Shown piece after piece: positions 5,041 through 11,585 of a stretch of 29,115 nucleotides of DNA. The notes beneath the pieces are model-generated. The model was not told where the DNA came from and searched no databases. It was given only the letters and a program-made list of their open reading frames with translations. The translations under genes and the position numbers were made by a program. Each line of letters starts with the position of its first letter. Position 1 is the first letter of the stretch. Where the stretch lies: NCBI GenBank assembly GCA_947087145.1, contig CAMUBM010000001.1, positions 1 to 29,115 of the forward strand, read 5' to 3'. The DNA is from an uncultured Mycoplasmatota bacterium (GTDB lineage Bacteria > Bacillota_I > Bacilli_A > RF39 > UBA660).

Positions 5041-5709
5041 GTGAGTAGTATGGAAATAGAAGATTTAAACATAGAATATGATAAATTACAAAAGAAATAT
5101 GGAGCCCCAGAACTAGACTCCATTTATAATGGTGGATGTACAGAAAACCCAGAATTATGTTTCGTATTCATGAACCCTACTGGAAGAAATATTGCATCAA
5201 CAAAAACATGGAAAGGCATAAAATCACCTTGGATAGGAACAAAAAATATTTGGGACTTATTTTATAGTTTAGATTTAGTAGAAGAGAATATTTACCAAGA
5301 AATAAAAAAGAAAAAAGGAAGTGAATGGACACCTGAGTTTGCAGAGTTTGTTTATGAAGACGTAAAAAAGCACAAATACTTCATTACCAATCTAGGAAAA
5401 TGTACCCAAATCGATGCCAGACCTTTACCAGACTCTGTATACAAAGAGTACTTAGAATTACTAAAAAAAGAAATCGAAATCATAAAACCCAAAGTAATTA
5501 TTTTATTTGGCAACCAAGTAAGTTCTATTGTACTGGAAGAAACTATTTCTGTTTCCAAATGCCGTAGGAAAGAATTTAAAAGAACAATAAATGGGCAAGA
5601 ATATTCTTTCTATTCTGTTTTTTACCCTGTAGGAAATGGCAGATTTAATATAGACAAAGCCATTGAAGATATAAAATGGATAAAGGAGGAAATAAAGTGC
5701 AAAATTTAG
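5041..5709 (+). CDS. Uracil-DNA glycosylase superfamily protein, atypical (start GTG 5041 or ATG 5050)
   Basis: UDG-fold motifs CFVFMNP, YFITNLGKC, IEIIKPKVIILFGNQV, and FYPVG in place of the usual HP motif. Confidence 0.75.
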   Translation: MSSMEIEDLNIEYDKLQKKYGAPELDSIYNGGCTENPELCFVFMNPTGRNIASTKTWKGIKSPWIGTKNIWDLFYSLDLVEENIYQEIKKKKGSEWTPEFAEFVYEDVKKHKYFITNLGKCTQIDARPLPDSVYKEYLELLKKEIEIIKPKVIILFGNQVSSIVLEETISVSKCRRKEFKRTINGQEYSFYSVFYPVGNGRFNIDKAIEDIKWIKEEIKCKI

Positions 5710-6167
5710 GATTTATTATAGACAAAAATGGAATAGTCACTTATTTTGGAAGTTGGGTAGAATATGATAAGAGAGAAAAAGAAAATCGAAATCAACAACA
5801 TACAACTAGTTTTGAAGATGAAGTAGAACCAACAGAATATTTTAAGTCGCTAAATCTCGTTTACAAAAAAGAAAATGACCATTGGATAATTTATGAAGCA
5901 GAAAATATTAGTTTACAAGGAGTTATAGTAGGAATAAACAATACTTATTATAAAGATAGACAGGAATTATGGATGTTTGTTTCTACGGATTTGACTGCAG
6001 CTCAAAAAGAAAGTTTGAATGACTTATATGAAACATTAAAAAAATTTAATACAATAAAAATAAAAACTTCTTCAAAACTAGGTTTTAATATAGAAGGATA
6101 TGAATACACCTCCGTTGATGATTATTTCGAAGATTATGGCATTGATTTACCAGGACGAAAAATGTAA
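5697..6167 (+). CDS. Hypothetical protein (~156 aa)
   Basis: Open frame with GGAGG 6 nt upstream of GTG 5697, overlapping the UDG 3' end. No recognised motif. Confidence 0.7.
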   Translation: MQNLGFIIDKNGIVTYFGSWVEYDKREKENRNQQHTTSFEDEVEPTEYFKSLNLVYKKENDHWIIYEAENISLQGVIVGINNTYYKDRQELWMFVSTDLTAAQKESLNDLYETLKKFNTIKIKTSSKLGFNIEGYEYTSVDDYFEDYGIDLPGRKM

Positions 6168-6200
6168 AAAACTTACACGAATAAAAATCATGTAAGTTTT
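6167..6200. terminator. Bidirectional terminator between convergent genes
   Basis: AAAACTTACA ... TGTAAGTTTT inverted repeat between two convergent stop codons. Confidence 0.6.
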
Positions 6201-6768
6201 ATTTATTTTCTAAAATATAAGTAAGAAGAACACCAATCGTTCTCTCTTCATGAATTTCCTTGTGAATACAAAGTTCTACGATTTCTTCATAACCTTTCCA
6301 AACAAAACCAGAAACAACTTCATTTTCTTCTAATTGTGGCCCGTCTTCACTAATTGTAAAGTCCGTAATTTCATAATAATACAAATCCCAAATGACTCCA
6401 GCTCCATCATGAGAAACTTTTAATAATCTGGGGTTATTTACAACAAAACCAACTTCTTCTAAAACCTCTTTTGGAACAGTGGATTCTACATGTTCCAAAA
6501 CGTTCCCTTGTTTTAAAGATTTCTTATATTCTTCCAAACTATCAAAAACTTTTCCGCCAGGAAGCCGATAATCCCAATCATTCAGTTCATAACGAAATTC
6601 TCGAGAAAGTAAAATCTTTCCCTTTTTCTTATCAACCAATAAAGCACGTATTCCTGGAGGTCTTCGTACCATGTTCCTTTTGATATGTTTGGTAACTCCC
6701 TCGATAACAAAATCTTCCTCTGTCTCCAAAAATTCAAAAAAACCATTATTATAAACAGATTTTTCCAT
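6199..6768 (-). CDS. NUDIX hydrolase (ADP-ribose pyrophosphatase-like)
   Basis: RRPPGIRALLV, LLSREFRY, YRLPGGKVF...KEVLEEVGF. Start reassigned to ATG 6768 behind AAGGTGA. Confidence 0.85.
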   Translation of the reverse strand: MEKSVYNNGFFEFLETEEDFVIEGVTKHIKRNMVRRPPGIRALLVDKKKGKILLSREFRYELNDWDYRLPGGKVFDSLEEYKKSLKQGNVLEHVESTVPKEVLEEVGFVVNNPRLLKVSHDGAGVIWDLYYYEITDFTISEDGPQLEENEVVSGFVWKGYEEIVELCIHKEIHEERTIGVLLTYILENK

Positions 6769-6916
6769 ACACATCACCTTAAATAAAATATACCATAGAA
6801 AAAAATAAAAGTGTATAATAAAAGAAAAAATATGAATAATATATTTTAATGAAAATTCCCACAAAAATAGCAATAGTTATATCAGAATTATAGTATAATT
6901 AAAGTAGGTGGTAACA

Positions 6917-7396
6917 ATGGAAATAATAGATTATTCTAATCAGTATAATGAAGATGTTAAAAATTTACTTGTCGAATTACAAGAACATATTGTGAAGTTA
7001 GACAAAGAAAAATATAATATTTTAACACCTGACTATAGAGAAAAATACTTTGAAAAAACAATGAACGCGGTAAAAAAATACGAAGGAAAAATATTTTTAG
7101 CCAAAGAAACGGATGCAATTGTTGGACTTATTATTGGTTTGATTAACAATGAAAATGAAAATACTTATGATTTTTCTGCTCCAAAAAGAGGTCGAGTGAC
7201 AGAATTAATAGTATCAAATAAATGCCGTTCCAAAGGAATAGGAGAACAATTATTAAATAAAATGGAAAGTTATTTTAAAGAAGTTGGTTGTAAAGGTGTT
7301 TTAATTGATGTTTTCGCTTACAATGAAAAAGCCCAAAATTTTTATTATAAAAACGGTTACTTTAATAGAAATATAGAGATAATGAAAAAAATTTGA
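6917..7396 (+). CDS. GNAT family N-acetyltransferase
   Basis: ELIVSNKCRSKGIGEQLL acetyl-CoA motif A and VFAYNEKAQNFYYKNGY. ATG 6917 follows AGGTGG. Confidence 0.9.
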   Translation: MEIIDYSNQYNEDVKNLLVELQEHIVKLDKEKYNILTPDYREKYFEKTMNAVKKYEGKIFLAKETDAIVGLIIGLINNENENTYDFSAPKRGRVTELIVSNKCRSKGIGEQLLNKMESYFKEVGCKGVLIDVFAYNEKAQNFYYKNGYFNRNIEIMKKI

Positions 7397-7406
7397 GGTA
7401 TTACCA

Positions 7407-7859
7407 ATGGTTGAAGAAATAATTAATACAATAGAAAAACAATTAGATAAACAAGAATGGGAACAATTAAAAAGCAAAACCTGGCATCTAGGAATTTTTA
7501 CAGAACCCTATTTAAACTATATGTTAGAAAAAAAGAAAACTATCGAGTCGAGATTTAGTAAAAACAAAATAGCTCCTTTCGAAAAAATAACAAAAGACGA
7601 TATTGTTTTCGTAAAAAAGTCTGGAGGAGATATTGTTGCCTATTTCACCATAAAAGAAGTATTATTTTTTGATTTACGAAACACTCCGATAGAAGAAATA
7701 AAAGAAAAATATGGGAAGGAATTGTGTGTAGATAACTCATTCTGGACAATTAAAAAAGATAGCAATTATGCAACATTAATAGTAATTGACCAAATAAAAA
7801 AAGTGAAACCATTTTCTATCAAGAAAAAAGGAATGCAAACTTGGATTGAGTTAAAATAG
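7407..7859 (+). CDS. ASCH domain protein (PUA-like)
   Basis: HLGIFTEPYLNYMLEKKKTIESRF (KxxExR motif) followed by DDIVFVKKSGG. Confidence 0.8.
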   Translation: MVEEIINTIEKQLDKQEWEQLKSKTWHLGIFTEPYLNYMLEKKKTIESRFSKNKIAPFEKITKDDIVFVKKSGGDIVAYFTIKEVLFFDLRNTPIEEIKEKYGKELCVDNSFWTIKKDSNYATLIVIDQIKKVKPFSIKKKGMQTWIELK

Positions 7860-7873
7860 AAATAGGATTAGCC

Positions 7874-8623
7874 ATGAAAAAAGAAGAAATTTTAAAAAAA
7901 GTCGATTGTTTATACAACATGTATCATGAGAGAAAATTAGGTGGAGAAATTATGCCTGAAGATGAAAATCCACGGTTAGAAAAAACTTCTAAAGAAAACT
8001 ATCTGTATTTTACTTTGCCAATGGCCCTAAATTATCAAAGAAACTCTTATACGCTTTGGGAAAATGCGAATAAAACCTATCAAGACAAAGAAACTCATTT
8101 TGTTTTTGACCCCCAAGAAGTTTTAAAAAGACCATTAGAAGAAGTACAAATGGCTTTAACCAAATACAAAGTAGCCCTCCAAAAAAACAAACAAACCGAA
8201 ATTTGGATAACATTATGCCAGACGATAGAAGATTTATTTGATGGAGATATAAGAAAATTGTTTATAGAACTAGAAAACGATGTAGATAAAATCAGAAACT
8301 TTATTCAAAAAGAAAAGAAGAAAAGATTTCCTTACCTTTCTGGAACTAAGATTTGCAATTACTGGTTGTACGTGATATGGCAGTATACAAAGCAAGAATA
8401 TAAAAATATAGAAAACCTAACAGTTGCACCTGATACACATGTCGTAAAAGCAACCCATCGTTTAGGATTGATTACAGAAAAAGAATTGACCTCATCCAAT
8501 GTCCAAGAAATTGTTATAAATCGGTGGAATGAACTCTTAAAAGGAACAAAATACAAACCCATTGACATTCACACCCCTCTTTGGCTTTGGAGTAGAAATG
8601 GTTTTAAGGAGTTAGAAGAATGA
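7874..8623 (+). CDS. HhH-GPD superfamily DNA glycosylase-like protein, no Fe-S motif
   Basis: HhH-like FPYLSGTKICNYWL, catalytic-Asp-like VAPDTHVVKATHRLGL, C-terminal DIHTPLWLWSR. Confidence 0.7.
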   Translation: MKKEEILKKVDCLYNMYHERKLGGEIMPEDENPRLEKTSKENYLYFTLPMALNYQRNSYTLWENANKTYQDKETHFVFDPQEVLKRPLEEVQMALTKYKVALQKNKQTEIWITLCQTIEDLFDGDIRKLFIELENDVDKIRNFIQKEKKKRFPYLSGTKICNYWLYVIWQYTKQEYKNIENLTVAPDTHVVKATHRLGLITEKELTSSNVQEIVINRWNELLKGTKYKPIDIHTPLWLWSRNGFKELEE

Positions 8624-9561
8624 ATAAATTAGAAGAAATCGAAAATACCTGTGAATATGTAATGCAAAATGCTAAACACGTCACCATAAACGAAGAAGCA
8701 ATAAATGATATAATAAAAAATTGGAACGAAGAAGAACAAAGCCACTGGCTAAGTAGTAATCCTTTTGGTCTACTAGATTTAGAAATAGAAGAGATTGTCA
8801 ATTTTCTAATTATTTTTGACTCTATTGTCTTTTCTTTCTGGGGAAAACCTAAATGGACCCTAACTACAATAGAAAACGAAAAGATAGATGGGTCATTTGC
8901 TCTTATCTACGCTTTACGGAATTTATATAAACAATACCACCATTTAGACTTTACTAAAATAACAGAAGAAGAATTTAAAAATGTTTTAAAAGGAAATGTA
9001 GAAATCCCTTTGCTTCAAAAACGCTTTCAAATTGCGAGGGAAGTAAGTGAAATCATAAACAAAAAAATGAATAGCAACTTCTATGTCTATACAAAAAAAA
9101 TGACAAAAGATACAGATCTTTTCAATTTTATTGTAGATAACTTCCCGACTTTTGAAGACGAAAGAACCTACAATGGAAAAACGATATTCTTTTATAAATT
9201 AGCCCAATTAGTCACCTCAGATATTTTGCATATAAGAGCATTAAAAGAAAATATTAGAGTAGATTGTTCTCATTTAGTAGGTTGTGCAGACTATAAGATA
9301 CCTCAAAGTTTAAGAAATTTACATATTGTAGAATATGACGAAGAACTGTCTCGTTTAGTAGATAATTTACAAGAGATAGAAGAAAACTCCATCTATGAAG
9401 TAGAAATACGAGCAAGTATGATTGTAGCCATCAAAAAAATAAAAGAAGGACGACGTAATAAAACAAATGCGATAGATATTAATGATACCTTGTGGGTATT
9501 AGGACAAGACAAATCAAAAAGTAACTATCCCTATCATCGAACAAGAACAACGTCTTATTAA
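8620..9561 (+). CDS. Queuosine salvage family protein (QNG1/DUF2419-like queuosine nucleotide N-glycosylase)
   Basis: IVFSFW, FPTFEDER, FFYKLAQL, ADYKIPQSLR (catalytic Asp motif), EVEIRAS, INDTLW, PYHRTRTTSY: the ordered motif series of the Q_salvage family. Confidence 0.85.
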   Translation: MNKLEEIENTCEYVMQNAKHVTINEEAINDIIKNWNEEEQSHWLSSNPFGLLDLEIEEIVNFLIIFDSIVFSFWGKPKWTLTTIENEKIDGSFALIYALRNLYKQYHHLDFTKITEEEFKNVLKGNVEIPLLQKRFQIAREVSEIINKKMNSNFYVYTKKMTKDTDLFNFIVDNFPTFEDERTYNGKTIFFYKLAQLVTSDILHIRALKENIRVDCSHLVGCADYKIPQSLRNLHIVEYDEELSRLVDNLQEIEENSIYEVEIRASMIVAIKKIKEGRRNKTNAIDINDTLWVLGQDKSKSNYPYHRTRTTSY

Positions 9562-9630
9562 GGAAAGATTTATTATTACGAGAACAAAATACATATAAAA
9601 AATATGGAAAGTTAAAAAAATAAAAATGGT

Positions 9631-10344
9631 CTAAGCAACCAATTTTTTTAGTTCTAACATACGTTTGATTTCATAGGTTGGAGTATAACCAGGAAGTAAG
9701 GGTTTATCACGATGATTAAACCAAATAGTATCCATTCCATTTTGCATACCACCTAAAATATCACTAGAAAGGGAATCTCCTATTGCTAAAATTTCTCTTG
9801 GCTCACATTTACAAAGTTCAAATAATGCTTTATAAAACAAAGGGTGAGGTTTATTTTTTCCAATATCTTCTGAACAAACTATTCCGGAAAAAAGAGAATC
9901 AACTTTTATGACTTCTAATTTCTTTGTAATCAAATTTTTTACACCATTTGTAATAAGCACTAATTTATAATATTTTTGTAAAAATTCCAATGTTTCACGA
10001 ACATTTGGAAGCGGTTGGATACAATCTCCTAAATGACTCATGTAAATATCGTTTAATAAAATACCCTCTTCAAGAGAAACAGATTTATCCTTAAAAAACT
10101 CTACAAAACGAAGAGCACGGAGATAGGTTGCCCAATCGGTAGGAAGTTCTTTAGGAACAACAATTTTATTTTCTTGAAAACGTTTCCAAAAATACTCATC
10201 AAAATGAACATATTGTAGCATATTTTCTTCCGTAGAAATAATATGTAAATGTTCATAAACCTGAGAAATAGCATATTTTATTGCTGCTACATCATCAACC
10301 AATGTATCATCTATGTCAAACGCAAGTACTTTGTATTTTTGCAT
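9631..10344 (-). CDS. HAD hydrolase, YjjG-like noncanonical pyrimidine nucleotidase
   Basis: FDIDDTLVD, LITNG, SEDIGKNKPHP, IGDSLSSDILGGMQNGMDTIWFN. Confidence 0.9.
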   Translation of the reverse strand: MQKYKVLAFDIDDTLVDDVAAIKYAISQVYEHLHIISTEENMLQYVHFDEYFWKRFQENKIVVPKELPTDWATYLRALRFVEFFKDKSVSLEEGILLNDIYMSHLGDCIQPLPNVRETLEFLQKYYKLVLITNGVKNLITKKLEVIKVDSLFSGIVCSEDIGKNKPHPLFYKALFELCKCEPREILAIGDSLSSDILGGMQNGMDTIWFNHRDKPLLPGYTPTYEIKRMLELKKLVA

Positions 10345-10430
10345 AAAATCACCATAGCGGCTATTATAAACAAAATAAAATAAATTGTGAAGAGAACAAA
10401 AGTATGCTATAATGATTGTGGGTGATAAAA

Positions 10431-10793
10431 ATGGACCAAAAAGAATTATTAAAACAAATAAAAACCACAGATAGTTTATATGCGATACAAAAATACATTG
10501 GAAAAGTAATTGAAATCAGAGGATTTGCAAACAATCCTATTGAAGAAGAGTTACTGCTTCTTACTGAAGAAGTGGGAGAACTAGCAAAAGCAGTAAGAAA
10601 AGAAAAATATCCAGTAGACAATAAAAAATTAAAAAACTATGACTCAATAGAAAGTGAAATAGCAGATGTGTTTATTGTTTTGACTTCGATTTGCAATTGT
10701 TTAAAAATTAATTTATACGATGTCATTATAGAAAAAGAAAATAAAAATATAGAAAGAATTTGGCAGAAAGTAGAAAAAGATAAAAATGAATGA
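10431..10793 (+). CDS. MazG-like nucleotide pyrophosphohydrolase
   Basis: LLTEEVGELAKAVRK and IESEIADVFI. ATG 10431 follows GGTGA and an upstream TGCTATAAT. Confidence 0.85.
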   Translation: MDQKELLKQIKTTDSLYAIQKYIGKVIEIRGFANNPIEEELLLLTEEVGELAKAVRKEKYPVDNKKLKNYDSIESEIADVFIVLTSICNCLKINLYDVIIEKENKNIERIWQKVEKDKNE

Positions 10794-11256
10794 GCGATTA
10801 ACAAAACGTTACATTATAAAAAACATAGAAAATTTAGAACTAAGTATTCCGTTACGTTACGAAAGATATTACATAAATGATTATTTGCGTATTCAAAAAA
10901 AAGGCAACAAATGTGAGAGTGAAACTTTAAATGAAAAAAATATAGTAATCAAAAAAGAAGAAATTTCACTAAAGGGATTTAATGAACTTAAAAAAACAGC
11001 CTATAAAAAAATCGTTCGAGATAGTTATTTATATGAAAAAGATAATCGTATTTCTATAAAAGTCTATTTAGAAGAATACAAAGGCTTAAATAGAATAGAA
11101 GTAAACTTTCCAAACGAAGAAGAATTAAAAAACTTTAAAAAAGAACCTTGGATGGAAAAAGAAATTACAAATTCTCCTCTTGCTTTTGATAAATACTTAA
11201 GTAAATTAACAAGACAAGAATTTGAAAAAGAATTAAAAAAATACCTTGGAGAATAG
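10786..11256 (+). CDS. CYTH/triphosphate tunnel metalloenzyme-like protein, degenerate N-terminal motif
   Basis: YLRIQKKG, IVRDSYLY, IKVYLEEYKGLNRIEVNF, PWMEKEIT. The usual ExExK is replaced by RLTKRY. Confidence 0.6.
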   Translation: MNERLTKRYIIKNIENLELSIPLRYERYYINDYLRIQKKGNKCESETLNEKNIVIKKEEISLKGFNELKKTAYKKIVRDSYLYEKDNRISIKVYLEEYKGLNRIEVNFPNEEELKNFKKEPWMEKEITNSPLAFDKYLSKLTRQEFEKELKKYLGE

Positions 11257-11258
11257 AA

Positions 11259-11585
11259 ATGTACTATATTTATATGCTTCGATGTGAAGACAATTCAATT
11301 TATACAGGAATAACCAATCATTTGGAAAGAAGAATGCAAGAGCATTTTCTAAAAACAAAAGAATGTGCAAAATACACAAAAAGACATACACCAGTAAAAA
11401 TTGAAAAAGTATGGACTTGTGAAAATCGTGTACTTGCTTCTAAATTAGAATATCGTATCAAAAAATTAACGAAACAAGAAAAAGAAGAGTTAATCAAACA
11501 AGAGAAAAAATTTTTGATATTATTTCAAGATAGTTTAGAATGCAAAAACTATAAACCGTTTTGTTTAAAAAACGATACCAAATAA
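11259..11585 (+). CDS. GIY-YIG nuclease family protein (YazA/UPF0213-like)
   Basis: YYIYMLRCEDNSIYTGITNHLERRMQEH, KYTKRH, ASKLEYRIKKL. Confidence 0.9.
   Translation: MYYIYMLRCEDNSIYTGITNHLERRMQEHFLKTKECAKYTKRHTPVKIEKVWTCENRVLASKLEYRIKKLTKQEKEELIKQEKKFLILFQDSLECKNYKPFCLKNDTK

What the first reader, a model, noticed from the sequence alone, without database searches (positions are those of the whole stretch)
7874..9561. Uncharacterised HhH glycosylase translationally coupled to a queuosine-salvage (QNG1) homologue
Seen: ATGA overlap at 8620-8623; both keep a candidate catalytic Asp (APDTH; ADYKIPQ). No tgt, que genes, queuine transporter or preQ1 riboswitch is visible in the window. Established: QNG1 cleaves the N-glycosidic bond of queuosine nucleotides, and some phages carry 7-deazaguanine derivatives in DNA. 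Inference: the pair may excise and recycle 7-deazaguanine bases, as salvage from nucleic acid or as defence against deazaguanine-modified phage DNA.
Basis: partly seen in the sequence, partly recalled or inferred. Interest (0 to 1): 0.7.

Follow-up and report, generated by a model that had tools for sequence, protein, structure and literature searches.

The report
Two coupled base-cleaving enzymes, often fused
A gut bacterium with a small genome carries two overlapping genes for related base-cleaving enzymes, one a queuosine-nucleotide hydrolase (QNG1) and the other from an unnamed family; relatives have them fused into one protein, and they probably clear or recycle abnormal purine nucleotides rather than only salvage queuosine.

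Summary
Two intact + strand genes overlap by ATGA at 8620-8623.

- **P0002** (8620-9561) is a clear QNG1/DUF2419 homologue. Its catalytic residues, 5'-phosphate pocket and free C-terminal Tyr are conserved.
- **P0001** (7874-8623) belongs to an unnamed helix-hairpin-helix (HhH) glycosylase family. No Pfam or NCBIfam model reaches threshold. Asp187 is invariant and Lys159 nearly so. Its predicted fold is closest to QNG1 itself (Z 18), ahead of endonuclease III (Z 15).

The linkage is not unique to this genome. At least 20 protein clusters are single HhH–QNG1 fusion proteins, always with QNG1 at the C-terminus. One lies in a near-identical syntenic locus where QNG1 plus the adjacent nucleotidase gene were swapped for a 50%-identical allele.

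QNG1 is a minority partner. In 57 loci with a co-directional downstream gene, that gene is most often an ITP/XTP pyrophosphatase from two unrelated families (18 of 57). The HhH domain is also fused to methyltransferases, GNAT, HD and Ham1 domains.

The 7-deazaguanine reading is only partly supported. The guanine-face Asp of AGOG and QNG1 is His in P0001. No defence model matches. tgt and queA lie elsewhere in the genome.

Best reading: a module that clears or recycles non-canonical purine nucleotides. Whether P0001 acts on mononucleotides or on DNA is unresolved.

Earlier windows of this scan had already noted this HhH family on other DNA, as a glycosylase–ITPase–UDG trio.

The parts
7874..8623 (+). 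P0001, 249 aa: member of an unnamed HhH-fold N-glycosylase family. Candidate catalytic Asp187 (APDTH) and HhH Lys159 (FPYLSGTK). No Fe-S cysteines.
   Evidence: ORF and translation. Only sub-threshold AGOG, DUF2400 and HhH-GPD hits. Family of 543 clusters at 50% identity. Invariant D187, near-invariant K159. Family profile vs Pa-AGOG 1XQO, E 1.1e-5. AF2 model pLDDT 95.7. Structural matches: Z 18.2 to Qng1 7ulc, Z 15.3 to EndoIII 1orn.
8620..9561 (+). P0002, 313 aa: QNG1/DUF2419-type nucleoside-5'-monophosphate N-glycosidase homologue
   Evidence: PF10343 E 1.8e-44. PDB 7U07 E 2.5e-34. Residues equivalent to St Qng1 (paper PMC9881137): K193=K199, D224=D231, Y225=Y232, K226=K233, K78=R80, Q296=Q306, W292=W302, terminal Y313=Y323.
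8606..8623 (+). Coupling junction: Shine-Dalgarno AAGGAG (8606-8611), then the ATGA start/stop overlap (8620-8623). Indels of 1-2 nt here turn the pair into a fusion in relatives.
   Evidence: Sequence. Junction alignment of split and fused loci.
6908..7396 (+). GNAT acetyltransferase, first gene of the tightly spaced co-directional run GNAT-ASCH-HhH-QNG1
   Evidence: PF00583 E 7e-18. Gaps of 10 and 14 bp to the next genes. Partly deleted in the syntenic locus L090.
7407..7859 (+). 150-aa ASCH-like protein directly upstream of the HhH gene
   Evidence: PF04266 E 5.6e-4, 21.0 bits, just below the 21.2-bit cut-off. Homologues also lie upstream of the HhH gene in L004 and L005 and in L090.
9631..10344 (-). 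HAD hydrolase resembling the YjjG/YfnB non-canonical pyrimidine 5'-nucleotidase. Convergent with QNG1 and swapped together with it.
   Evidence: PF13419 E 6.6e-26. TIGR02254 E 4.5e-44, 150.6 bits, below the 159.9 cut-off. Lies inside the divergent block 8600-10357.
8600..10357 (.). Allelic cassette. Against the syntenic contig L090, DNA identity is 98-100% up to about 8600, 30-73% across QNG1 plus HAD, and 96% again from 10358.

Best explanation
The locus encodes a two-enzyme module made of two HhH-fold N-glycosidases, which many relatives carry as one polypeptide.

P0002 is a QNG1-type enzyme that cleaves the base from a purine nucleoside 5'-monophosphate, giving free base plus ribose-5-phosphate. 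Queuosine-5'-monophosphate or a related guanine-like analogue is the likely substrate.

P0001 belongs to an undescribed sister-like family with the same two-lobe fold and the conserved Asp/Lys pair. I propose that it cleaves a second class of non-canonical purine that QNG1 does not take, most likely also at the mononucleotide level.

Together with the neighbouring ASCH, GNAT, YjjG-like nucleotidase, MazG, NUDIX and UDG-like genes, the pair would clear or recycle abnormal or modified nucleotides. These arise from RNA/DNA turnover and from the gut environment, in an organism that lives by salvage.

Shown here: gene structure, family membership of P0002, fold and catalytic residues of P0001, and the recurrent fusion and coupling. 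Inferred: the substrates of both enzymes and the level (mononucleotide versus polymer) at which P0001 acts.
For: **Coupling**
- ATGA overlap with its own Shine-Dalgarno sequence.
- Adjacent genes in L003-L005.
- Fused ORFs in G153, G087 and G118 and in at least 20 clusters at 90% identity, 55-96% identical to one another.
- QNG1 is always the C-terminal half. This fits its need for a free C-terminal carboxylate (PMC9881137).
- The fusion model has pLDDT 89.6 and pTM 0.83, with an ordered linker.
- P0304 has an HhH half 99% identical to P0001 but a QNG1 half only 51% identical to P0002, in a syntenic locus. The partnership therefore survives replacement of the partner.
- On the HhH tree, QNG1-linked rows form the basal grade and at least 4 separately supported groups.
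- In 200 genomes of the order, HhH and QNG1 co-occur with odds ratio 5.2.

**Nucleotide-level theme**
- P0002 keeps the whole 5'-phosphate pocket.
- The P0001 model is closer to Qng1 (Z 18.2, 224 residues aligned, rmsd 3.4) than to any DNA glycosylase (EndoIII Z 15.3, 193 residues).
- Immediate downstream partners in 57 loci: DUF84 ITP/XTPase 10, Ham1 8, QNG1 4, HD 4, NUDIX 3.
- Fusions to Ham1 (P0136), YfbR-like HD (P0391), SAM-methyltransferase and GNAT.
- The window's HAD gene resembles the YjjG house-cleaning nucleotidase.
- The genome already has two canonical HhH-GPD repair genes elsewhere.
Against: - No assay exists, so the substrate of P0001 is unknown.
- P0001 keeps an EndoIII-like hairpin (FPxLxGxK) with Lys two residues after Gly, as in bifunctional DNA glycosylase/lyases.
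- Its best sequence-profile match is a DNA glycosylase, Pa-AGOG.
- Distant family members carry an EndoIII-type 4-Cys motif. Some are fused to DUF6884, a YaaA-like DNA-binding fold, and one sits beside giant helicase-nuclease genes. The wider family may therefore act on DNA.
- A UDG-like DNA glycosylase is the commonest family among second-downstream and upstream neighbours (11 of 95).
- Profile-profile similarity of P0001 to QNG1 is not significant (hhalign probability 1.9%).
- IMP and XMP, the products of the ITPase partners, are normal metabolites that need no disposal.
Confidence: 0.45

Rival explanations
1. P0001 is a true DNA glycosylase/AP lyase that removes deaminated or oxidised purines (hypoxanthine, xanthine, 8-oxoG-like) from DNA. 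Its partners (ITPases, NUDIX, MazG, QNG1, nucleotidases) clean the nucleotide pool. The genes would then form a 'prevent and repair' set like MutT/MutM/MutY, not consecutive steps of one pathway.
For: - Conserved Asp187 and Lys159 at EndoIII D138/K120-like positions.
- AGOG is the best profile match.
- Z 15.3 to EndoIII-DNA complexes.
- Fe-S-type and DUF6884-fused distant relatives.
- Recurring HhH-ITPase-UDG order.
- No endonuclease V or Ham1 found in this genome, which is 74% complete.
Against: - The fold is nearer to Qng1 than to any DNA glycosylase.
- The P0001 clade is not basic: pI 5-8 against 8.7-9.7 for the Fe-S-type relatives.
- Fusions to small-molecule-type methyltransferases, GNAT, an HD 5'-nucleotidase and QNG1 are hard to explain for a DNA enzyme.
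- The family is patchy (15 of 200 genomes), and canonical Nth- and MutY-like genes are present.
Confidence: 0.3
2. One reading: the pair targets 7-deazaguanines. P0001 excises queuine, preQ or other 7-deazaguanine bases from nucleic acid (tRNA fragments or modified phage DNA, as Dag1/Dag2 do). QNG1 cleaves the matching mononucleotides. The outcome is salvage or anti-phage defence.
For: - Repeated fusion of the HhH domain to a 7-deazaguanine-nucleotide hydrolase family, possibly the ancestral partner.
- HhH glycosylases that defend against 7-deazaguanine phages exist (bioRxiv 10.1101/2025.10.29.685425).
- The family is patchy, highly conserved and found in variable contexts.
- Distant relatives are fused to a YaaA-like domain, the fold family of DpdC.
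Against: - The guanine-face Asp (AGOG D218, Qng1 D298) is His233 in P0001.
- Most loci pair the same, nearly invariant HhH domain with ITP/XTPases or methyltransferases, not with QNG1.
- No PADLOC match.
- The Q-specific pocket of P0002 is itself partly altered.
- tgt is universal in the order while QNG1 is present in 14%.
- This genome has queA and a non-queuine-type TGT motif.
Confidence: 0.12
3. The adjacency has no functional meaning: two unrelated cargo genes packed together in a variable region of a compact genome, sometimes fused by accidental loss of a stop codon.
For: The surroundings of the HhH gene are very variable. Fusion needs only a 1-2 nt indel. The HhH domain is fused to many different partners.
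Against: Fusions persist down to 55% identity with both halves intact. Domain order is always the one QNG1 chemistry requires. The pair is kept through allele replacement. Partners are far from random: nearly all act on nucleotides.
Confidence: 0.05

Closest known systems
QNG1 / DUF2419 (PF10343), queuosine-5'-monophosphate N-glycosidase; structures 7U07 and 7ULC (Sphaerobacter), 7UGK (human)
   Same: P0002 is a full-length member: E 1.8e-44 to Pfam, and E 4e-54 for the clade profile against 7U07. It has the nucleophile Asp, the HhH Lys, the ribose and phosphate pocket, and the C-terminal Tyr. The P0001 model also has Qng1 as its best structural match (Z 18).
   Different: By profile alignment, the P0002 clade has Ser/Ala for Y93, Phe for W94, Asp/Thr for W299, and Asn288/Asp289 where D298 lies. 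The queuine side-chain pocket may therefore differ. P0001 has no significant sequence match to the family, lacks about 60 residues of Qng1 insertions, and does not end in the conserved Tyr. No published Qng1 work read here mentions an N-terminal HhH fusion.
AGOG (PF09171; Pa-AGOG 1XQO) and endonuclease III (Nth; 1ORN, 2ABK), bifunctional HhH DNA glycosylase/lyases
   Same: Two-lobe HhH fold. Catalytic Asp in a V/P-D-x-H motif, and Lys two residues after the hairpin Gly. Trp four residues after the base-contact column. Family profile E 1.1e-5 to AGOG; Z 15.3 to EndoIII and Z 12.8 to AGOG.
   Different: Below every Pfam and NCBIfam cut-off. No Fe-S cluster in the P0001 clade. His in place of AGOG's guanine-binding Asp218. 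Near-neutral pI. Patchy accessory distribution. Fused or coupled to nucleotide hydrolases.
Dag1/Dag2 and related integron HhH glycosylases that defend against 7-deazaguanine-modified phages (bioRxiv 10.1101/2025.10.29.685425)
   Same: Sequence-divergent HhH-fold proteins missed by family models. Accessory, patchy, and in variable or AT-rich contexts.
   Different: No sequence comparison was possible because the Dag sequences are not held. P0001 partners are house-cleaning enzymes rather than defence genes. No PADLOC hit.
House-cleaning nucleotide hydrolases: RdgB/Ham1, YjjX (DUF84), MazG, NUDIX, YjjG, YfbR
   Same: These are the recurrent neighbours and fusion partners of the HhH domain, and they fill the window's 5041-11585 island.
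   Different: None of them cleaves the N-glycosidic bond. An HhH-fold N-glycosidase working alongside them has not been described apart from QNG1.

Membership tests
QNG1 / Q_salvage (PF10343), tested on P0002 | Sequence match above the curated family threshold | tested here: met
   152.8 bits against a cut-off of 25. 7U07 E 2.5e-34.
QNG1 / Q_salvage (PF10343), tested on P0002 | Nucleophile Asp (St D231) and HhH Lys (St K199) | tested here: met
   D224 and K193 align with them and are invariant in 22 clade members (roles from PMC9881137).
QNG1 / Q_salvage (PF10343), tested on P0002 | 5'-phosphate pocket (St R80, Y232, K233, Q306) | tested here: met
   K78, Y225, K226 and Q296 sit at the aligned positions.
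QNG1 / Q_salvage (PF10343), tested on P0002 | Free C-terminal Tyr carboxylate as part of the active site | tested here: met
   P0002 ends in Y313. All 14 aligned fusions place QNG1 at the C-terminus and end in Tyr. The requirement is described.
QNG1 / Q_salvage (PF10343), tested on P0002 | 7-deazaguanine face contact (D298, W302) and cyclopentenediol pocket (W48, Y93, W94, W299) | tested here: inconclusive
   W292 = W302. D298 aligns with N288 in the gapless profile alignment, or with D289 if shifted by one. Y93 aligns with Ser92 (Ala in most of the clade), W94 with Phe93, W299 with Asp289 or Thr290. The N-terminal part is too poorly aligned to place W48.
QNG1 / Q_salvage (PF10343), tested on P0002 | Hydrolysis of queuosine-5'-monophosphate to queuine | not testable with these tools
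   Needs an enzyme assay.
QNG1 / Q_salvage, tested on P0001 | Sequence or profile match to the family | tested here: not met
   No PF10343 hit. hhalign of the two family alignments gives probability 1.9%, E 0.025. Only the fold is shared (Z 18.2).
HhH-GPD / EndoIII / AGOG DNA glycosylases, tested on P0001 | Sequence match above the curated threshold | tested here: not met
   AGOG 16.0 bits (cut-off 26.1); HhH-GPD 13.9 (26.2); DUF2400 14.3 (25); nth 15.7 (211.7). The family profile reaches E 1.1e-5 to 1XQO over 63 residues only.
HhH-GPD / EndoIII / AGOG DNA glycosylases, tested on P0001 | Two-lobe HhH fold | tested here: met
   AF2 pLDDT 95.7. Z 15.3, rmsd 3.3, 193 residues to 1orn; Z 12.8 to 1xqo.
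HhH-GPD / EndoIII / AGOG DNA glycosylases, tested on P0001 | Catalytic Asp after the hairpin, and Lys for the bifunctional enzymes | tested here: met
   D187 is invariant and K159 is conserved in at least 90% of 33 diverse members. The family-profile alignment pairs D187 with residue 172 of Pa-AGOG.
HhH-GPD / EndoIII / AGOG DNA glycosylases, tested on P0001 | Binding and base-flipping of duplex DNA | not testable with these tools
   No model coordinates or protein-DNA modelling were available. pI 7.6 is uninformative.
Dag-type anti-phage HhH glycosylases, tested on P0001 | Location in defence islands, integrons or mobile elements | tested here: inconclusive
   No PADLOC hits for P0001, P0002 or most neighbours tested; two neighbours give only weak hits, E about 0.006. 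Among 95 flanking genes: integrase 3, AAA_15/21 3. An earlier scan note (e1-4725591) reports mobile-element cargo in another genome. The window's locus is syntenic chromosomal DNA.
Dag-type anti-phage HhH glycosylases, tested on P0001 | Sequence relation to Dag1-Dag24; protection against 7-deazaguanine phages | not testable with these tools
   Dag sequences are not held. Protection needs plaque assays.

The most novel reading that the evidence does not exclude
The HhH-QNG1 protein is a polymer-to-base machine for 7-deazaguanines. The HhH half would excise queuine-type or other 7-deazaguanine bases directly from nucleic acid (tRNA fragments or modified phage DNA). The QNG1 half would strip the same bases from mononucleotides. 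This would give nucleic-acid-level queuine salvage, or a defence that also recycles the phage's modified bases. A related possibility is that the unnamed HhH family is the evolutionary bridge from AGOG-like DNA glycosylases to QNG1, arising by tandem duplication.
Probability: 0.12. Interest if true: 0.85.

Novelty: new variant of a known kind. Interest (0 to 1): 0.55.

Why it matters
QNG1 is so far the only HhH-fold enzyme known to act on a free nucleotide rather than on DNA. This locus shows a second, unnamed HhH family with 543 clusters at 50% identity. It is structurally nearest to QNG1 and is repeatedly fused or translationally coupled to QNG1, to ITP/XTP pyrophosphatases, to nucleotidases and to small-molecule transferases.

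If that family also cleaves nucleotides, it defines a new branch of house-cleaning and modified-nucleotide recycling in gut bacteria with reduced genomes. It would also change how 'queuosine salvage protein' annotations in these genomes should be read.

If it acts on DNA instead, it is a new accessory repair or defence glycosylase family, and its nucleotide-pool partners are unusually informative about its substrate. Both outcomes can be tested directly with one protein panel.

Tried and rejected
- **Complex prediction** of P0001 with P0002: no verdict (score 0.00). Not used as evidence either way.
- **Single-sequence phmmer** of P0001 against PDB: only chance hits.
- **hhalign** of the HhH family against the QNG1 clade: not significant. 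The alignment was used only as a guide to positions.
- **PADLOC scan** of the pair and eight neighbours: nothing for the pair or six neighbours; two neighbours gave only weak hits (E about 0.006).
- **Promoter/terminator scan**: counts at chance level in this AT-rich DNA, so no operon boundaries are claimed from it.
- **Co-occurrence of QNG1 with tgt**: uninformative, because tgt is in 199 of 200 genomes.
- **pI and net charge** as a proxy for DNA binding: inconclusive.
- **Cluster names** for ten family members: none carries a name.
- **YhhQ/QPTR, QueT, QueC and QueF** were not found in the genome. At 74% completeness this does not show absence.
- **QueL (queuine lyase)** could not be searched for, because no sequence or model was at hand.
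- **Sequencing frameshift** as the origin of the split was considered and rejected. Three other genomes have the split form, with a conserved Shine-Dalgarno sequence and start codon.
Full report
**1. What is in the sequence**

The ATG of P0002 (8620-8622) overlaps the TGA of P0001 (8621-8623). A strong Shine-Dalgarno AAGGAG lies at 8606-8611, 8 nt upstream.

The two genes end a tightly spaced co-directional run. It consists of GNAT (6908-7396), a 150-aa ASCH-like protein (7407-7859), HhH and QNG1, with gaps of 10 bp, 14 bp and -4 bp.

Around them lies an island of base-excision and nucleotide house-cleaning genes:
- a family-4-like UDG (5041-5709);
- NUDIX (6199-6873, minus strand);
- a HAD hydrolase resembling the YjjG non-canonical pyrimidine nucleotidase (9631-10344, minus strand; TIGR02254 E 4.5e-44, just below its cut-off);
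- MazG (10416-10793);
- GIY-YIG (11259-11585).

No tRNA gene and no Rfam family, so no preQ1 riboswitch, is present in the window.

**2. The organism and its queuosine genes**

The window belongs to an 850-kb metagenome-assembled genome that is 74% complete. Its closest relatives are uncultured gut 'Bacilli/Tenericutes' MAGs of about 1 Mb.

The genome does carry tgt and queA, adjacent on contig C4. QueC, QueF, YhhQ/QPTR and QueT were not found. At this completeness that does not show absence.

tgt is in 199 of 200 sampled genomes of the order, whereas QNG1 is in 27 of them over the family cut-off. QNG1 is therefore an accessory gene in a lineage where Q modification is universal.

The TGT pocket motif here reads GGVANDHE. 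It is neither the preQ1-type GGLAVG nor the queuine-type GG[LS][AS]G described in PMC11570991. With queA present, direct insertion of queuine is not the expected route.

**3. P0002**

P0002 is an unambiguous QNG1/DUF2419 member: PF10343 E 1.8e-44, Sphaerobacter Qng1 7U07 E 2.5e-34, and clade profile E 4e-54.

Using the residue roles given in PMC9881137, the following are conserved:

| St Qng1 | P0002 | Role |
|---|---|---|
| D231 | D224 | nucleophile |
| K199 | K193 | HhH lysine |
| F75, Y232 | F73, Y225 | ribose stack |
| R80, K233, Q306 | K78, K226, Q296 | 5'-phosphate pocket |
| W302 | W292 | base-stacking Trp |
| Y323 | Y313 | terminal Tyr with free carboxylate |

P0002 should therefore be an active nucleoside-5'-monophosphate N-glycosidase.

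The part of the pocket that holds queuine's side chain is less well kept. By profile alignment, Y93 becomes Ser/Ala, W94 becomes Phe, and W299 becomes Asp or Thr. The guanine-face D298 aligns with Asn288, or with Asp289 if the register shifts by one. I treat this as a flag that the true substrate may not be queuosine monophosphate, not as proof.

**4. P0001**

No Pfam or NCBIfam model reaches its cut-off. The best hits are AGOG, DUF2400, HhH-GPD and nth, each at 14-16 bits.

The family is nevertheless large. There are 3,395 proteins in the 90%-identity collection and 543 clusters at 50% identity. None carries a name.

In an alignment of 33 diverse members, Asp187 is invariant. Lys159, Phe152-Pro153, Gly157, His189 and Trp237-x-x-Ser240 are nearly so. 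The family profile matches Pa-AGOG (1XQO) at E 1.1e-5, with Asp187 on AGOG Asp172.

Distant members carry a C-terminal four-Cys motif like the Fe-S loop of endonuclease III. The P0001 clade lacks it.

The AlphaFold model is confident (pLDDT 95.7). Its best structural matches are the Qng1 crystal structures (Z 18.2-17.4, 224 residues, rmsd 3.4). Next come endonuclease III (Z 15.3, 193 residues), MjOgg (13.7) and AGOG (12.8). So the 'uncharacterised HhH glycosylase' resembles its downstream neighbour more than it resembles any solved DNA glycosylase.

At the sequence level the two families are not significantly related (hhalign probability 1.9%). The alignment is nonetheless topologically sensible, placing Asp187 on Asp224 and Trp237 on Trp292.

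One specificity clue stands out. The column that holds the guanine-binding Asp in AGOG (D218) and Qng1 (D298) is His233 in P0001. It is invariant in the close clade, His/Asn/Gln in other Fe-S-less members, and Asp in the Fe-S-type members.

The genome also has two canonical HhH-GPD genes, with Nth-like and MutY-like frames, elsewhere. P0001 is therefore an extra enzyme, not the ordinary repair one.

**5. Is the linkage real?**

Yes. Six lines of evidence support it.

- *Recurrence.* Among the 80 best related loci from other species, QNG1 directly follows the HhH gene in L003, L004 and L005. It is fused to it in L037, and a 98-aa remnant follows it in L082.
- *Fused open frames.* In a 200-genome sample of the order, three genomes from three genera carry one open frame of 561-563 aa.
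- *Many fusion clusters.* A search with one fusion found at least 20 full-length fusion clusters, 55-96% identical to the query. All aligned fusions have HhH at the N-terminus and QNG1 at the C-terminus, ending in Tyr. This is the only order compatible with Qng1's need for a free C-terminal carboxylate.
- *Compact fusion model.* A fusion model has pLDDT 89.6, pTM 0.83 and an ordered linker, which suggests a compact two-lobed unit.
- *Small indels at the junction.* Split and fused forms differ by 1-2 nt indels at the junction. The split forms keep the Shine-Dalgarno sequence and start codon, so the split here is not a sequencing error.
- *Survival through allele replacement.* The fusion P0304 has an HhH half 99% identical to P0001, but its QNG1 half is only 51% identical to P0002. 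Its contig (L090) is syntenic with the window over 17 kb. DNA identity is 98-100% through the ASCH-like and HhH genes. It falls to 30-73% exactly from the junction (about 8600) through QNG1 and the HAD gene, then returns to 96% at 10358. The QNG1-plus-nucleotidase cassette was exchanged while the partnership was kept.

On a tree of HhH domains, QNG1-linked sequences form the basal grade and at least four separately supported groups. This was a quick search, rooted on long outgroup branches with modest backbone support, and the fusion rows were added by a targeted search. The partnership is therefore either ancestral or gained repeatedly.

In the 200 genomes, HhH and QNG1 co-occur more than expected (counts 6, 9, 21, 164; odds ratio 5.2; p 0.007). 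The caveat is that related genomes are not independent.

**6. QNG1 is not the main partner**

In 57 related loci with a co-directional downstream gene, that gene belongs to these families:

| Downstream family | Loci |
|---|---|
| DUF84/YjjX ITP/XTPase | 10 |
| Ham1/RdgB ITPase | 8 |
| QNG1 | 4 |
| HD protein | 4 |
| NUDIX (two of them Nudt16-like) | 3 |

A UDG-like gene is the commonest family among second-downstream and upstream neighbours (11 of 95).

The HhH domain is also fused to:
- a TehB-like SAM methyltransferase (13 of 80 loci);
- an N-terminal GNAT;
- Ham1 (P0136);
- a YfbR-like HD 5'-nucleotidase (P0391);
- an LCM-type methyltransferase (P0399).

The HhH domain stays 70-80% identical, with the same pocket residues, whatever the partner. 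Its own substrate is therefore probably the same in all these settings.

QNG1 genes that are not next to the HhH gene have heterogeneous neighbours: NUDIX 3, GNAT 2, UDG 2. None of them is tgt, a que gene or a known Q transporter. Earlier windows of this scan reached the same picture for other genomes. They describe a recurring glycosylase-ITPase-UDG trio and HhH-methyltransferase and GNAT-HhH fusions. I recovered these independently.

**7. Mechanism**

The shared feature of almost all partners is action on free nucleotides, mostly non-canonical purine nucleotides.

Three things make the following reading the most economical, at confidence 0.45. The fold of P0001 is nearest to the one HhH enzyme known to work on a mononucleotide. 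The catalytic pair is intact. Fusions usually join steps of one pathway. On this reading, P0001 is a second nucleotide N-glycosidase that works beside QNG1. The island as a whole would then dispose of, or recycle, abnormal and modified nucleotides in a salvage-dependent gut bacterium.

The main rival (0.30) is that P0001 is a true DNA glycosylase/lyase for deaminated or oxidised purines, with pool-cleaning partners, in the manner of the MutT/MutM/MutY logic. Four observations favour it:
- the EndoIII-like hairpin with Lys two residues after Gly;
- the AGOG profile match;
- the Fe-S-type relatives and those fused to DUF6884, a YaaA-like DNA-binding fold (PMC11701544), one of which lies beside giant helicase-nuclease genes;
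- the UDG neighbour.

It loses from His233, from the dominance of ITPase partners and from the absence of any defence signal.

Chance adjacency (0.05) is hard to reconcile with section 5.

**8. Novelty**

Both folds are known, and P0002 belongs to a known family. What is new:
- the HhH family itself, which is unmodelled, unnamed and structurally nearest to QNG1;
- the HhH-QNG1 fusion architecture;
- the evidence that 'queuosine salvage' genes in these genomes sit in a house-cleaning context rather than a queuosine context.

None of the papers read here mentions such a fusion.

I rate this as a new variant of a known kind, of moderate interest. Interest would be high if the nucleic-acid-level 7-deazaguanine reading turned out to be true.

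Noticed in passing
L002:1492-2607 (-) = G000:C4:5759-6823: The genome's TGT has GGVANDHE where bacterial preQ1-type enzymes have GGLAVG and queuine-type enzymes have GG[LS][AS]G (PMC11570991). It keeps the DEC motif, and queA is the next gene. This is an unusual substrate pocket in a lineage that must salvage Q precursors.
   Followed up: partly
window 8600-10357 versus L090:8725-10480: There is a sharp allelic replacement. QNG1 plus the convergent YjjG-like HAD gene are 30-73% identical between two otherwise 96-100% identical syntenic loci. The left breakpoint falls exactly at the HhH/QNG1 junction.
   Followed up: yes
L006, L007, L009, L014, L017, L022, L028, L029, L038, L046, L065 (HhH ORFs of 457-484 aa); P0126: The same HhH domain is fused to a C-terminal TehB-like class I SAM methyltransferase in 13 of the 80 related loci.
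   Followed up: partly
L075:5464-6744, L079:750-2033; P0136; P0379, P0391; P0399: Further fusions of the HhH domain: N-terminal GNAT, C-terminal Ham1 ITPase, HD/YfbR-like 5'-nucleotidase, and LCM-type methyltransferase.
   Followed up: partly
L091:6001-7728 (P0287): A distant family member is fused to DUF6884, a YaaA-like DNA-binding fold. It lies between a 1276-aa NERD-UvrD-PD(D/E)XK protein, a 1275-aa unknown protein and a 1616-aa DEAD/ResIII/MZB helicase. This looks like a defence island.
   Followed up: no
L082:4254-4547; G075:C28:20220-21209; G108:C32:6683-7090; G013:C64:86-241: Decay products are present. A 98-aa QNG1 remnant lies after an intact HhH gene. One QNG1 frame still carries the last 21 residues of an HhH domain. 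Two HhH pseudogenes have in-frame stops.
   Followed up: no
P0310 (543 aa): Here QNG1 is fused to a GFO/IDH/MocA-type NAD-binding oxidoreductase domain (PF01408, PF03447), which is another unexplained QNG1 architecture.
   Followed up: no
window 6908-7396 versus L090:7216-7521: The GNAT gene upstream of the ASCH-like gene is full length (162 aa) in the window but reduced to a 101-aa ORF in the near-identical locus. There are also alignment gaps at 5870-6111 and 7171-7320. The house-cleaning island varies between close strains.
   Followed up: partly
window 10786-11256 and 5676-6167: Two conserved ORFs of the island, 156 aa and 163 aa, have no family match above threshold. The 156-aa gene is kept in L003 and L090.
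   Followed up: no
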